Of a DNA stretch of 19,472 nt, positions 5,448 to 7,883 are shown piece by piece (within the stretch, counting starts at the first letter, position 1; each line of letters starts with the position of its first letter). Origin of the DNA: a virus; the UHGV virus genome UHGV-0294315. One strand, 5' to 3'. The notes under the pieces are model-generated. The model saw only the letters and a list, made by a program, of their open reading frames with translations, did not search any database and was not told where the DNA came from. The translations under genes were made by a program, and so were the position numbers.

Positions 5448-6164
5448 ATGGAAAATAAAAAATCACTGACGACAGAACAGCTCGAAGACGCTAAGCGGCT
5501 TAAGGCTTTGTATGAGTCAAAAAAGAAAGAATTGGGAATAACCCAATACTCAATCGCTGATGAACTGGGTATCACCCAAGGAGCGGTAGGGCATTATCTT
5601 AATGGCAGAAACGCGCTAAACGTTGAGGTCGCATCTGGTTTTGCACGTTTGTTGCAAGTCTCAATTGCTGATTTTAGCCAGTCAATTGCTGCCAAGGTTG
5701 CAGAACAGGCAGAAAGCCTTAAGAGCGATGCCAACGTAAGGTATGCAGGGGAATACAGAGCAGGAAAGAGGTATCCGGTGTTAAGCAGTATCCAGGCTGG
5801 CTCGTGGTGTGAAGCATGCGAACCATACACCATTAAAGACATAGATGTTTGGCTTGAGTCTGACGCGCATATTCAAGGCAATGCGTTCTGGCTTAAAGTG
5901 GAAGGTGATTCAATGACGGCACCGGTTGGGTTAAGCATTCCAGAGGGAACATTCGTTCTTTTCGATACCGGAAGGGAGGCGATCAACGGCAGCCTGGTCA
6001 TAGCAAAACTTTCTGACTCTAACGAAGCAACATTCAAGAAGCTGATAATCGACGGCGGAAATAAATACCTCAAGGGACTTAACCCTGCATGGCCTCTCGT
6101 GCCAATCAATGGAAACTGCAAGATTATAGGCGTTGCAATTGAGACAAAACTAAGGCTGGTTTGA
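5448..6164 (+). CDS. cI: CI-type prophage repressor (HTH N-terminal domain plus S24 LexA-like autocleavage domain)
   Basis: N-terminus LTTEQLEDAKRLKALYESKKKELGITQ resembles lambda CI; C-terminus FWLKVEGDSMTAPVGLSIPEG...ATFKKL...NGNCKIIGV resembles lambda CI / P22 C2. No Shine-Dalgarno upstream, consistent with a leaderless PRM transcript. Confidence 0.9.
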   Translation: MENKKSLTTEQLEDAKRLKALYESKKKELGITQYSIADELGITQGAVGHYLNGRNALNVEVASGFARLLQVSIADFSQSIAAKVAEQAESLKSDANVRYAGEYRAGKRYPVLSSIQAGSWCEACEPYTIKDIDVWLESDAHIQGNAFWLKVEGDSMTAPVGLSIPEGTFVLFDTGREAINGSLVIAKLSDSNEATFKKLIIDGGNKYLKGLNPAWPLVPINGNCKIIGVAIETKLRLV

Positions 6165-6183: not shown

Positions 6184-6552
6184 ATGGTTGGAACCGCTAT
6201 AGCAAGCTTTTTTGGGATGTTGGCAATCTCAACAATTTACGGCTTAGCGCATGCTTTTATTGCGAAATCTCTATCAGAAAAAATAAGCCAGGCTTGGGCG
6301 CATAGATCAGCTCGTTTCATGATTCTAGTGGTCATAGCAATACAAGGGATATCTGCATTTATCCTCTATGGATCAAGCTTATACCTGTTGTATCAAGGCG
6401 CGACATTTACGCCTTACACCAGTGATTACGGAACTCTATACGATGGTAGTGAAGACATCTCTATGGCTTGGATCGTCTTTGGTTTATCTATGGCCGTGTC
6501 TGTTGTAGCAGACATCATTAAGGTAATTCTCGTCTTAACCTTCGCTGACTAA
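6184..6552 (+). CDS. Small integral membrane protein (122 aa, 3-4 predicted TM helices) co-transcribed with cI, in the rex position
   Basis: RBS AAGGGGGA 6 nt before ATG, 19 nt after the cI stop. Hydrophobic segments (e.g. VGTAIASFFGMLAISTIYGLAHAFIA, FMILVVIAIQGISAFILYGSSLYLLY). No family recognised. Confidence 0.6.
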   Translation: MVGTAIASFFGMLAISTIYGLAHAFIAKSLSEKISQAWAHRSARFMILVVIAIQGISAFILYGSSLYLLYQGATFTPYTSDYGTLYDGSEDISMAWIVFGLSMAVSVVADIIKVILVLTFAD

Positions 6553-6637
6553 CCCATAATCCCGGCAGCAATAGCTATCGGGATCCACTTCACATATCCC
6601 GCATAAAAAGCACTGAACAAGCAGATACCGAAAAAAT

Positions 6638-6724
6638 AAATATCCTTTGTATTCATTTGTTTATCATTATTTCATCAAAAATAAATACCTTGGGTATTTA
6701 CACAATAAAATACCTACAGTATTC
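6638..6724. promoter_or_regulatory. OL operator cluster / pL region
   Basis: AAATAT-CCTTT-GTATTC (6638-6654), AAATAC-CTTGG-GTATTT (6683-6699, perfect), AAATAC-CTACA-GTATTC (6708-6724), the same consensus as OR. Candidate -35 TTTACA at 6697-6702. Confidence 0.55.
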
Positions 6725-6770
6725 TTTAGCCATCAGCAGGACGCTGGTAGCCAAACGGAACAGATTGGCA

Positions 6771-6812
6771 GGCTCTTTAACATTGATGGGATTGTCCCGC
6801 CGAAATGCGGGA
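6771..6812 (+). promoter_or_regulatory. nutL-like site (boxA plus boxB hairpin)
   Basis: GGCTCTTTAACA (boxA) at 6771-6782 followed by the TCCCGC-CGAAAT-GCGGGA hairpin at 6795-6812, the same boxB as nutR. Confidence 0.55.
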
Positions 6813-6983
6813 ACCAAAGAGTAGTTGGCTTTGGGGTGTGGTGAAGGGTTCATGGACGGGAATATGTCGCACGTAAAGCGGCGAGGCCTGCGGGACTATT
6901 GCCGAATTGAAGTCGGACGAAGCGGGTCGAAATGGGTCTCCCACCGACCACACCACCAAAGCTAATCATCTGAGGAACAGAAA

Positions 6984-7103
6984 ATGTTAGACATCATTAC
7001 CAACCCAATTCTCGGTGGTTTAGTTACCACATTCGCCATCGGCTTCGGTTTCACCATCTGGTCTGAAGTAGATGACTGGATGTGGGAACGCAAAAACAAA
7101 TAA
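6984..7103 (+). CDS. Possible 39-aa single-pass membrane peptide in the pL leader
   Basis: RBS GAGGAA 7 nt upstream; MLDIITNPILGGLVTTFAIGFGFTIWSEVDDWMWERKNK has a hydrophobic core and a charged tail. Short, so coding status is uncertain. Confidence 0.35.
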   Translation: MLDIITNPILGGLVTTFAIGFGFTIWSEVDDWMWERKNK

Positions 7104-7143
7104 TCATCGACACACAAGGATGTGTACCTTCCCGGAGGTCAAC

Positions 7144-7449
7144 ATGACAGTAGTCATTACATATCTGGCTGACGATAACGCCAGAAATCGCCGCAGAGCA
7201 CGCAGACAGGCTCAACGTGAACAGGCAATGCAAGAGCAGCGACTGGCGCGAAAAATTGCGCTAAAGCTCTCTGGTTGCGTCAGGGCAGATAAAGCAGCAT
7301 CACTCGGAAGCCTTCGCTGCAAGAAGGCAGAAGAAGTCGATCGTAAACAGAATCGTATTTACTACCGCAAGCCACGCAGTGAAATGGGTGTGACATGCTC
7401 AGGCCGCCAGAAGCAACGCGGAAAATCAATTCCAGCTTATTACGATTGA
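7144..7449 (+). CDS. N: N-like transcription antiterminator (arginine-rich motif; P22 gene 24-like)
   Basis: RBS GGAGGT then ATG; MTVVITYLADDNARNRRRARRQAQREQ carries an arginine-rich motif near the N-terminus and resembles the P22 gp24 start (MTVITY...). First gene after OL/nutL. Confidence 0.7.
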   Translation: MTVVITYLADDNARNRRRARRQAQREQAMQEQRLARKIALKLSGCVRADKAASLGSLRCKKAEEVDRKQNRIYYRKPRSEMGVTCSGRQKQRGKSIPAYYD

Positions 7450-7457
7450 GGTGAGAT

Positions 7458-7709
7458 ATGGAATTTCATGAAAGTGCGATTTATGATTTTCGCGCTAACG
7501 CAAATTCAGTAAAACCACAGCCAATTGCAGTTCTTTTTAAAACAATGGGTGCGTGGGCTGTTTTATGCTTCGCCGCTGATGACACTGACGCAAGAATGGC
7601 AATAGGCCAAGAGATGGAGATGGACCCGACAAACGATGAATTCATAATTTATGGCGCTCCATCTAATTACTTACTTGATACCTGCAACATTTACAAAAAG
7701 GCTGCCTGA
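7458..7709 (+). CDS. Hypothetical protein (83 aa)
   Basis: RBS GAGGTGA upstream of ATG, 8 nt after the N stop. No family recognised. Confidence 0.55.
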   Translation: MEFHESAIYDFRANANSVKPQPIAVLFKTMGAWAVLCFAADDTDARMAIGQEMEMDPTNDEFIIYGAPSNYLLDTCNIYKKAA

Positions 7710-7729
7710 TGGTGGCCTTTATTTTTAGC
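7700..7729 (+). terminator. Terminator-like hairpin with T-tract after the 83-aa gene
   Basis: AGGCTGCC-TGAT-GGTGGCCT stem-loop (with G-U pairs) followed by TTATTTTT. Same loop and architecture as the stronger terminator at 14552. Confidence 0.45.
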
Positions 7730-7748
7730 ATAAACAACAGAGGTGAAT

Positions 7749-7883
7749 ATGAACGCAGTTGAATTTACAAAATGGATGGCAGAGCAAGATATCACAGGAG
7801 CCGACGAAAAGGCTGTGTACTACATGGCTCTGCTATGGATTCACAAAGCAAAAGAGGCTGCAAATGCTCTTGGAGGTGAGTAA
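7749..7883 (+). CDS. Hypothetical small protein (44 aa)
   Basis: RBS AGAGGTGA upstream; MNAVEFTKWMAEQDITGADEKAVYYMALLWIHKAKEAANALGGE; stop overlaps the next start (TAATG). Below the ORF-track cutoff. Confidence 0.35.
   Translation: MNAVEFTKWMAEQDITGADEKAVYYMALLWIHKAKEAANALGGE

What the first reader, a model, noticed from the sequence alone, without database searches (positions are those of the whole stretch)
6813..7143. Long untranslated pL leader containing a possible 39-aa membrane peptide
Seen in sequence: about 330 bp separate nutL from the N start. The first ~170 bp (6813-6983) are GC-rich with no ORF; then a 39-aa ORF with a good RBS encodes a hydrophobic helix plus charged tail and ends 40 nt before N. 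An upstream in-frame stretch of the N reading frame (7072-7143) encodes GNAKTNNHRHTR, reminiscent of a degenerate arginine-rich motif. Inference: the leader may hold a structured regulatory RNA and/or a small toxic or regulatory membrane peptide; lambda has nothing comparable here.
Basis: partly seen in the sequence, partly recalled or inferred. Interest (0 to 1): 0.4.

Follow-up and report, generated by a model that had tools for sequence, protein, structure and literature searches.

The report
Small membrane-protein gene inside N leader
The long stretch in front of the phage's N gene holds two things: the same folded RNA helix that phage lambda has there, which is already well known, and a real but never-annotated 39-amino-acid membrane-protein gene that sits directly upstream of N in a minority of related prophages.

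Summary
nutL ends at 6812 and N starts at 7144. The stretch 6813-6983 is GC-rich, and a 39-codon ORF (6984-7103) has a GAGGA Shine-Dalgarno 8 nt upstream and ends 40 nt before N.

1. The GC-rich part is the lambdoid N-leader long-range helix (6824-6843 paired with 6947-6966). Its arms are nearly identical to lambda's. Across 10 leader classes, 13 of 21 pairs carry compensatory changes. Lambda therefore does have the comparable element, where it is linked to RNase III and N autoregulation.

2. The 39-aa ORF is a real gene. It matches PHROG 7482 (E=8e-24) and has dN/dS of 0.06-0.25. It has the same 39-aa length in every intact lambdoid copy. It lay directly upstream of N in all 31 lambdoid IMG/VR loci, in front of at least six N types. 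It occurs in 31 of 5,426 complete E. coli genomes and is annotated in none of them. Distant relatives occur in lytic Mooglevirus and Avunavirus phages.

3. The "ARM-like" upstream N frame is a by-product of overlap with the peptide's conserved C-terminus.

The peptide's function is unknown. My best inference is an immediate-early inner-membrane peptide whose ribosome-binding site has taken N's place beside nutL.

A side finding: in some relatives a tRNA-like element sits inside the same helix.

The parts
6697..6732 (+). pL promoter (-35 TTTACA 6697-6702, -10 TATTCT 6720-6725). The transcript probably starts at A6732 of AUCAGCAGG.
   Evidence: Promoter scan. The sequence is identical to the annotated pL/OL1-3 of HK620. 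The same AUCAGCAGG start motif occurs at the position I recall as lambda's pL start, coordinate 35582 (from memory). The phage 21 record annotates a pL transcription start.
6771..6812 (+). nutL: boxA GCUCUUUAACA (6772-6782) and the boxB hairpin 6795-6812 (UCCCGC-CGAAAU-GCGGGA).
   Evidence: 100% identical to the nutL annotated in HK620. Read.
6824..6843 (+). 5' arm of the conserved N-leader long-range helix. It holds the invariant UUUGGG core and the GU-rich, boxC-like GGUGUGG.
   Evidence: MFE fold (z = -3.4). Covariation across 10 leader classes. Lambda arms verified.
6844..6946 (+). Interior of the helix, of the 933W/phi80 type: a structured insert of about 103 nt. It is non-coding; its 37-codon ORF at 6852-6965 is not conserved.
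   Evidence: 94.7% identical to 933W and about 89% to phi80. At least 89% identical in 499 of 5,426 E. coli genomes. An internal helix GGCCUGC/GCGGGUC shows compensatory changes in phi80 and LD39. ORF check.
6947..6966 (+). 3' arm of the helix (CCACACC-A-CCAAAGCUAAU). A6955 is the conserved single-base bulge.
   Evidence: In all 10 classes the bulged base is A or G and is followed by the invariant CCAAAG.
6972..6976 (+). Shine-Dalgarno GAGGA of the 39-aa ORF. G6974 and G6975 are predicted to pair with C6815 and C6814, which lie 2-3 nt after boxB.
   Evidence: An SD with an 8-nt spacer is conserved in three diverged leader types. Pair probability is about 0.89.
6984..7103 (+). Gene for a 39-aa single-pass membrane peptide (PHROG 7482).
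   Evidence: phrog_7482 E=8.3e-24. Homologues at 72-100% identity; every intact lambdoid copy is 39 aa. dN/dS 0.06-0.25. AlphaFold2 gives a helix over residues 8-38 with pLDDT 83. Hydropathy peaks over residues 8-26.
7112..7125 (+). Small hairpin just after the ORF stop (ACACA-AGGA-UGUGU). It travels with the ORF cassette.
   Evidence: The stem is kept with changes in other copies: GCACA/UGUGC in L007, L126 and L129; GACACACA/UGUGUGUC in L098 and L121; UGCAC/GUGCA in L133. It was also picked up as a weak minus-strand terminator-like site.
7127..7138 (+). N translation-initiation region. The SD GGAGG (7134-7138) is predicted to pair with CCUU (7127-7130).
   Evidence: Pair probabilities 0.67-0.81. 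L007 has CCUC/GGAG at the same place. This is a thermodynamic prediction only.
7144..7449 (+). Antiterminator N gene (101 aa), HK620/phage-21 type, with its own arginine-rich motif NARNRRRARRQAQ.
   Evidence: phrog_271 E=7.5e-36. 97-99% identical at the DNA level over the matched pieces, which include N, in HK620, HF4s and others.

Best explanation
The 330-nt leader is a mosaic of two modules.

Module 1 (6824-6966) is the standard lambdoid N-leader helix. It is a roughly 20-bp long-range duplex whose 5' strand follows nutL boxB and whose 3' strand normally abuts the N ribosome-binding site. Here it encloses a 933W/phi80-type interior. By homology with lambda it should be the RNase III-processed structure that brings N bound at nutL next to the downstream Shine-Dalgarno, allowing translational autoregulation.

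Module 2 (about 6970-7133) is an inserted gene cassette: Shine-Dalgarno, 39 codons and a 3' hairpin. It encodes a single-pass inner-membrane peptide of PHROG 7482.

The cassette sits between the helix and N's ribosome-binding site, so the peptide, not N, is now the first cistron of the pL transcript, and its Shine-Dalgarno occupies the position beside boxB.

Shown: homology and covariation of the helix; coding status, conservation and fixed position of the ORF.

Inferred: the peptide is made immediately and independently of N after infection or induction. Its translation is probably the one damped by N/nutL and released by RNase III, which would give a short early pulse. It probably acts at the inner membrane, for example in exclusion of superinfecting phage or in host takeover.
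For: Helix:
- Each of 10 leader classes folds on its own to the same closing helix.
- 91.9% of cells are paired, against 31-44% when the partner strand is slid. 13 of 21 pairs change on both sides. 0 of 500 shuffles reach the observed values.
- The lambda arms were verified in the lambda record. Phage 21, 933W, phi80, HK620 and 611R6 all carry the helix.
- Literature: in lambda, N and Nus factors bound at nutL repress N translation across a highly structured leader of about 200 nt (PMC5725501, citing Wilson 1997 and 2002). RNase III activates N synthesis (PMC9032294, citing Kameyama 1991). Leader processing is cited from Steege 1987 in PMC5371410.

ORF:
- The PHROG match.
- dN/dS 0.06 against L007, with 17 synonymous and 12 non-synonymous differences.
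- An invariant C-terminus, DWMW[ED]RKNK in nearly all copies, and an invariant N-terminal NPIL motif that is also present in the 45-46-aa proteins of lytic Mooglevirus and Avunavirus phages.
- All 31 lambdoid IMG/VR loci have it directly upstream of N, with at least 6 N types.
- It is present in 6 of 80 loci that share this N type and in 31 of 5,426 E. coli genomes.
- Comparison with HK620 places the insertion exactly between AAUCAUC and GGAGGUCAACAUG.

Geometry:
- The ORF's Shine-Dalgarno pairs with C6814/C6815 next to boxB with p about 0.89.
- In L132 the ORF lies upstream of the helix instead, again starting close (about 35 nt) after a boxB-like hairpin.
Against: There is no expression, processing or phenotype data for this element. 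RNase III cleavage and N-mediated repression are extrapolated from lambda, and I could not read the primary papers. The peptide's biochemical role is a guess: there were no hits in Pfam, NCBIfam or PADLOC. In L128 and L129 the ORF is not next to a recognisable helix, so the 'takes N's place' geometry is not universal. The family is small: 8 clusters at E <= 0.001 among 1.84 billion representatives. Many copies are near-identical, so the number of independent events behind the conserved position is lower than 31.
Confidence: 0.75

Rival explanations
1. The 39-codon ORF is mainly a regulatory upstream ORF. What matters is the act of translating it, for example to keep a 410-nt leader covered by ribosomes against Rho, or to open N's partly sequestered Shine-Dalgarno through the downstream hairpin. 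The peptide itself would be unimportant.
For: The ORF is always directly upstream of N. The ORF-to-N spacing is 40 nt in the four main sequence types, and a conserved hairpin lies 8 nt after the stop. N's Shine-Dalgarno is predicted to pair with CCUU at 7127-7130.
Against: There is strong purifying selection on the amino-acid sequence (dN/dS 0.06-0.25). Homologues with the same N-terminal motif exist in lytic phages that have no N gene. A terminating ribosome would not reach the anti-SD, which lies 24 nt after the stop. The local folds are weak, at -7 to -11 kcal/mol.
Confidence: 0.15
2. The ORF is the toxin of a type I toxin-antitoxin or Hok-like module kept in check by an antisense RNA.
For: It is small and hydrophobic with a charged tail. 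There is a terminator-like hairpin with a T-rich tail on the minus strand at 7128-7109.
Against: No minus-strand promoter was found in 6500-7800. There was no Rfam match. The gene lies in sense orientation inside a strongly repressed early operon. Relatives are ordinary early-region genes of lytic phages.
Confidence: 0.05
3. The GC-rich segment is a free-standing phage small RNA, or a tRNA-like RNA, that is excised from the leader and acts in trans. The helix would be just its processing signal.
For: The interior is at least 89% conserved in 499 E. coli genomes, across phages with different N genes and immunity regions. Interiors are swapped as cassettes inside a constant helix. In L098, strain EC20 and Salmonella phage P6 the interior is a tRNA-like element scoring 38.2 bits against Rfam tRNA. 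From memory only: phi80 induces a small 'M3 RNA' that RNase P cleaves (cited in PMC11143913 and PMC5499578). Its map position was not verified.
Against: The window's interior has no tRNA or other Rfam match, even at E <= 10. No target or trans function is known. The high conservation may reflect recent spread. Lambda's interior is unrelated in sequence.
Confidence: 0.2

Closest known systems
Phage lambda N-gene leader: nutL followed by the RNase III-processed stem that mediates N translational autoregulation (Steege 1987; Kameyama 1991; Wilson 1997, 2002)
   Same: It has the same position on the pL transcript. The helix arms are near-identical, including the bulged purine and the CCAAAG / UUUGG core. 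In most relatives the 3' arm ends a few nucleotides before a Shine-Dalgarno.
   Different: The interior is of the 933W/phi80 type, unrelated to lambda's. The cistron that follows the helix is a 39-aa membrane peptide rather than N, and N lies 160 nt further on with its own small hairpins. Cleavage and repression have not been shown for this phage.
rrn operon leader: boxB-boxA-boxC, with boxC in the 5' strand of the RNase III-cleaved leader-trailer helix (PMC10250234)
   Same: A GU-rich boxC-like sequence (GGUGUGG here, UCUGUGUGGG in rrn) lies downstream of boxA and forms the 5' strand of a long helix. That helix encloses a variable 'cargo' and is conserved through covariation.
   Different: The cargo here is 100 nt rather than 16S rRNA. 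The element order is boxA-boxB-helix. The function concerns mRNA translation, not ribosome assembly. The boxC identity of the phage arm is my inference.
PHROG 7482 (phage protein family of unknown function), e.g. Shigella phage Sf18 gp86 'putative membrane protein'
   Same: A significant profile match, the shared N-terminal motif M[LI][DE]I[IL]xNPILxG, and one hydrophobic helix followed by an acidic then basic tail.
   Different: The lytic-phage members are 45-46 aa and only 34-41% identical. They sit among early genes of virulent myoviruses, not in an N leader.
Small early phage membrane proteins and morons (T4 Imm, HK97 gp15, Hok-type peptides). Comparison from general knowledge only.
   Same: Size class, a single transmembrane helix, and carriage as an optional cassette in a mosaic genome.
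   Different: There is no sequence similarity. Expression would be from pL and so repressed in the lysogen, unlike lysogen-expressed exclusion morons. No phenotype is known.

Membership tests
Lambdoid N-leader helix (lambda RNase III site type) | Lies on the pL transcript between nutL boxB and the next translation start | tested here: met
   boxB ends at 6812, the helix spans 6824-6966, and the next Shine-Dalgarno is at 6972
Lambdoid N-leader helix (lambda RNase III site type) | Long-range duplex of about two helical turns, supported by covariation | tested here: met
   About 20 bp with one bulge. 13 of 21 pairs change on both sides across 10 classes. 91.9% paired against 31-44% when slid
Lambdoid N-leader helix (lambda RNase III site type) | Sequence homology of the arms to lambda's leader | tested here: met
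   Window GGCUUUGGGGUGUGGUG / CCACACCACCAAAGCUAA against lambda GGCUUUGGGGUGUGUG / CACACACCACCAAAGCUAA
Lambdoid N-leader helix (lambda RNase III site type) | Cleaved by RNase III, and mediates N/nutL-dependent translational repression | not testable with these tools
   Known for lambda only (PMC5725501, PMC9032294). Needs rnc and N genetics on this element.
PHROG 7482 small phage protein | Full-length match to the family profile | tested here: met
   E=8.3e-24, residues 1-39 on profile positions 1-39 of 46. Sf18 gp86 and the Avunavirus protein hit the same profile.
Protein-coding gene (as opposed to a chance ORF) | Frame, length and amino-acid sequence kept under purifying selection in diverged copies | tested here: met
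   dN/dS 0.06-0.25. All 31 lambdoid IMG/VR copies are intact and 39 aa.
Type I toxin-antitoxin | Overlapping or adjacent antisense RNA gene with its own promoter | tested here: inconclusive
   No minus-strand sigma-70-like promoter in 6500-7800 and no Rfam hit. The scans are crude.
tRNA / tRNA-like element (Rfam RF00005) | Covariance-model or ARAGORN match | tested here: not met
   Nothing in the window at E <= 10 and no ARAGORN gene. It is met only in relatives: L098 (38.2 bits) and phage P6.
N-terminal arginine-rich extension of N | Amino-acid conservation of the upstream in-frame stretch, with a usable start | tested here: not met
   L007 reads GSARTSNPRRTR at that place. The changes are synonymous in the peptide frame. 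There is no DNA similarity to a real ARM. The stretch is absent from HK620-type loci that share the same N.

The most novel reading that the evidence does not exclude
The constant helix (invariant UUUGG|G ... C-purine bulge-CCAAAG, resembling a G1-C72 / discriminator / CCA acceptor end) is a general excision holder. It would release interchangeable small RNAs from the first 250 nt of every lambdoid pL transcript. In some phages the cargo is a tRNA-like molecule. In this window it is the highly conserved 933W/phi80-type RNA of about 103 nt, which would then be a trans-acting phage small RNA (possibly the old phi80 'M3 RNA', an RNase P substrate). On this reading the 39-aa peptide is a pulse-expressed membrane effector whose translation N shuts off through nutL.
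Probability: 0.15. Interest if true: 0.7.

Novelty: new variant of a known kind. Interest (0 to 1): 0.42.

Why it matters
The lambda pL leader is a textbook regulatory region. Three results here bear on it.

- Its helix is conserved by covariation across lambda, 21, 933W, phi80 and HK620-type phages, with an invariant core and swappable interiors. That gives a comparative framework for the RNase III / N autoregulation model.

- A minority of prophages place a conserved, unannotated membrane-peptide gene ahead of N, in the position that N's ribosome-binding site normally holds. This predicts a rewired early circuit: the peptide comes first, and N translation is uncoupled from the helix.

- The gene is missed by standard annotation in all 31 E. 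coli genomes that carry it. It is also a tractable case of a small phage protein shared between temperate and lytic phages.

Tried and rejected
- Rfam search of the whole window at gathering thresholds, and of 6650-7250 at E <= 10: only noise.
- Pfam, NCBIfam and PADLOC on the peptide: no hit.
- The word-indexed protein search needed at least 40 aa, so one upstream in-frame residue was added.
- The GTDB representative-genome scan gave only a spurious Clostridia fragment.
- Literature searches found nothing on a small ORF upstream of N or on an sRNA in the 933W N leader.
- Primary papers were not held: Wilson 1997 and 2002, and Bothwell 1976. The lambda RNase III cut positions and the phi80 M3 RNA sequence therefore could not be checked.
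- The idea that hairpin-loop AAGG acts as an SD mimic competing with the anti-SD was dropped, because the loop is UUCA in L098 and L121.
- The 37-codon ORF inside the helix was rejected as a gene.
- The idea that the P22-like 'GNAKT' stretch is a remnant of an ARM was rejected.
- A general tRNA-like fold for all leader interiors was rejected, because upper-stem lengths vary and there is no T-arm or D-arm in the window.

Full report
CONTEXT

The window is a lambdoid prophage whose + strand carries the leftward early operon.
- cI is at 5448-6164, followed by an hkaS-like 122-aa gene at 6184-6552.
- Then come OL/pL, nutL, the long leader, and N at 7144-7449.
- From the terminator after hkaS to just past nutL, the sequence is essentially identical to phage HK620, where OL1-3, pL and nutL are annotated.
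- The promoter scan finds TTTACA-17-TATTCT at 6697-6725.

OBSERVATION

- 331 nt lie between the end of boxB (6812) and the N start codon (7144).
- GC content is 0.52-0.59 over the first half of that stretch.
- A 39-codon ORF lies at 6984-7103, with GAGGA 8 nt upstream. It ends 40 nt before N.
- The N frame is open back to ATG 7072.
- The segment called "ORF-free" does contain a 37-codon ATG ORF (6852-6965). It is truncated in phi80 and runs out of frame into N in 933W, so I discard it.

THE LEADER IS A MOSAIC

Alignment with HK620, HF4s and 611R6 shows identity up to about 6838 and again from 7133 (CGGAGGUCAACAUG). Between those points the phages carry unrelated segments of about 66, 66 and 150 nt, against 295 nt in the window.

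The first 133 nt of the window's segment are 94.7% identical to the stretch between nutL and N in 933W and many Stx phages, and about 89% identical to phi80. This type occurs in 499 of 5,426 complete E. coli genomes. The remaining roughly 165 nt, which hold the ORF, occur in only 31 genomes and in no deposited phage genome at the DNA level.

THE GC-RICH PART IS THE LAMBDA-TYPE N-LEADER HELIX

The region folds with a roughly 20-bp closing helix: 6824-6843 pairs with 6947-6966, and A6955 is bulged. The z-score is -3.4.

Lambda's own leader, read from NC_001416, has the same arms (GGCUUUGGGGUGUGUG ... CACACACCACCAAAGCUAAC) ending 13 nt before N's AGGAG. Ten leader classes each fold independently to this helix: window, 933W, phi80, lambda, HK620, L094, phage 21/L058, L027, 611R6/L047 and L007.

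On an ungapped alignment of the arms:
- 91.9% of cells pair, against 31-44% when the partner strand is slid by 1-3 columns.
- 13 of 21 pairs show changes on both sides.
- No shuffle out of 500 reaches the observed values.
- The invariant core is UUUGG|G on the 5' side and C, a bulged A or G, then CCAAAG on the 3' side.

The literature states that lambda nutL lies about 200 nt upstream of N, and that N plus Nus factors bound there repress N translation. It also describes the intervening RNA as highly structured (PMC5725501, citing Wilson 1997 and 2002). RNase III activates N synthesis (PMC9032294, citing Kameyama 1991) and processes the leader (Steege 1987, cited in PMC5371410). So "lambda has nothing comparable" is wrong, and this part is a known kind of element.

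The GU-rich 5' arm resembles boxC. In rrn operons boxC lies in the 5' strand of the RNase III-cleaved leader-trailer helix (PMC10250234). That parallel is my inference.

THE 39-AA ORF IS A REAL GENE

- It matches PHROG 7482 over its full length (E=8.3e-24).
- Database homologues are 74-97% identical. All are 39 aa except one 61-aa record (P0002) that carries an upstream extension. Further representatives keep the same 39-aa core and the DWMW[ED]RKNK end.
- Nucleotide comparison gives dN/dS of 0.06 against L007 (17 synonymous, 12 non-synonymous changes) and 0.17-0.25 for other pairs.
- Proteins of 45-46 aa in lytic Mooglevirus (Sf18 gp86, annotated as a membrane protein) and Avunavirus phages hit the same PHROG and share M[LI][DE]I[IL]xNPILxG.
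- Hydropathy peaks over residues 8-26. AlphaFold2 predicts one long helix over residues 8-38 after a kink at N7-P8 (pLDDT 83).
- The three basic residues are all C-terminal. By the positive-inside rule (general knowledge) this suggests an N-out, C-in topology.

POSITION OF THE ORF

- The ORF-encoding contigs recovered and all 31 lambdoid IMG/VR loci have the ORF directly upstream of an N-type gene.
- At least six different N amino termini follow it: MTVVITYLADDNARNRRR, MTVIVYGKSTFAGNAKTRRHERRR, MTNREHKKLL, MTTIIVKPVKDNAKRRKY, MTNLSAGNSVTRRYLKR and MTRKTAFNGSASGRRRERR.
- These copies sit behind several different leader interiors.
- Among 80 loci with this window's N type, 6 carry the ORF.
- In the four main types the Shine-Dalgarno spacing (8 nt) and the ORF-to-N gap (40 nt) are the same. 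A small hairpin follows the stop codon, and its stem is maintained through changes (ACACA/UGUGU, GCACA/UGUGC, GACACACA/UGUGUGUC, UGCAC/GUGCA).
- In one locus (L132) the order is nutL-ORF-helix-N instead of nutL-helix-ORF-N.
- PGAP annotates none of the 31 E. coli copies.

THE ARM-LIKE UPSTREAM N FRAME

The stretch GNAKTNNHRHTR resembles the P22-type ARM GNAKTRRHERRR, which I verified in L098's N. Three points argue against any function.
- It overlaps the peptide's invariant WERKNK-stop. In L007 the peptide frame is kept by synonymous changes while the N frame becomes GSARTSNPRRTR.
- DNA similarity to the real ARM-coding region is at shuffle level (score 16 against 13.9 +/- 2.2).
- HK620-type loci with the same N lack the stretch altogether.
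It is a by-product of the overlap.

MECHANISM (INFERRED)

In relatives the helix's 3' arm ends just before N's Shine-Dalgarno. In the window it ends just before the peptide's Shine-Dalgarno. G6974 and G6975 of that Shine-Dalgarno are predicted to pair with C6815 and C6814, 2-3 nt after boxB (p about 0.89).

The peptide has therefore taken the place that N's initiation region holds in lambda. I infer three things.
- The peptide is the first product of pL and is made without need of N.
- Its translation is the one exposed to N/nutL repression and to RNase III release, which would give a brief early pulse.
- N itself starts from a separate site whose Shine-Dalgarno is weakly sequestered by CCUU at 7127-7130 (p 0.67-0.81).

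None of this is shown experimentally. The biochemical role of the peptide is unknown. Pfam, NCBIfam and PADLOC give nothing, and no antisense promoter suggests a type I toxin system.

SIDE FINDINGS

1. In E. coli AR_0058 (L098), strain EC20 and Salmonella phage P6, the interior of the same helix is an 82-nt tRNA-like element. PGAP calls it "tRNA-OTHER", ARAGORN calls it tRNA-Pro, and it scores 38.2 bits against Rfam tRNA (gathering score 29). It has a 15-nt anticodon loop and a C1·A72 mismatch. Its acceptor stem is the top of the helix.

2. With that in view, the invariant core reads like G1-C72, a discriminator purine and CCA, with the CCA paired to UGG. The window's interior itself is not tRNA-like.

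3. From memory only: phi80 induces an "M3 RNA" that RNase P cleaves (cited in PMC11143913 and PMC5499578). I could not verify whether it maps to this leader.

4. A second insert class of about 205 nt lies between the helix and N's ribosome-binding site in L017, L018, L025, L045, L048 and L062. It has a strong Shine-Dalgarno followed by AUG-UGA and a GC hairpin. The junction therefore looks like a hotspot for small cassettes.

VERDICT

The structured RNA is the known lambda-type N-leader helix. The ORF is a genuine, unannotated small membrane-protein gene whose fixed place ahead of N is a new variant of the pL leader architecture. Interest is moderate.

Noticed in passing
L098 1401-1482 (E. coli AR_0058); L103 917-998 (Salmonella phage P6); also E. 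coli EC20: An 82-nt tRNA-like element sits inside the N-leader helix, between nutL and the next cistron. It scores 38.2 bits against Rfam tRNA, ARAGORN calls it tRNA-Pro, and PGAP calls it tRNA-OTHER. It has a 15-nt anticodon loop and a C1·A72 mismatch. Its acceptor stem forms the top of the conserved helix.
   Followed up: partly
window 6831-6836 and 6954-6961 (all leader classes): The invariant helix core is UUUGG|G ... C, a bulged purine, then CCAAAG. It reads like the G1-C72 / discriminator / CCA end of a tRNA, with the CCA paired to UGG. The GU-rich 5' arm resembles boxC of rrn leaders.
   Followed up: partly
L017, L018, L025, L045, L048, L062: about -230 to -20 relative to the N start: A different insert of about 205 nt lies between the helix and N's ribosome-binding site. 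It has AGGAGGAUUU followed by AUG-UGA (a start-stop mini-ORF) and a GC-rich hairpin. It has no Rfam match.
   Followed up: partly
L132 840-1215: An alternative order, nutL-ORF-helix-N: the 39-aa gene lies upstream of a short version of the helix, which still abuts a 933W-like N.
   Followed up: no
window 7019-7055 (ORF codons 12-24): Between the window and L008/L009 the differences cluster in the transmembrane-coding codons (12 of 117 nt differ), while the 220-nt leader and the 40-nt spacer are almost identical. This is either a local mosaic patch or diversification of the helix face.
   Followed up: no
window 6852-6965: A 37-codon ATG ORF with a GAAGG upstream lies inside the helix interior. 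It is cut to 19 codons in phi80 and runs out of frame into N in 933W, so it is probably not a gene.
   Followed up: yes
window 7109-7128, minus strand: The hairpin after the ORF scores as a terminator-like site on the minus strand, followed by a T-rich tail. No minus-strand promoter was found nearby.
   Followed up: partly
window 6184-6552: A 122-aa hkaS-like gene lies between cI and OL (phrog_6534, E=6e-79). It has weak hits to membrane-protein Pfam models (Cation_ATPase_C, TssN), and its function is unknown. It is presumably co-transcribed with cI in the lysogen.
   Followed up: no
window 7697-7720: An intrinsic-terminator-like hairpin with a T-run lies right after the 83-aa ORF (7458-7709, phrog_2471). 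It is a candidate tL1, which would bound the N-independent transcript.
   Followed up: no
31 E. coli RefSeq genomes: The 39-aa gene is annotated in none of the 31 complete E. coli genomes that carry it. One E. albertii record calls a 61-aa version with a spurious upstream extension.
   Followed up: yes
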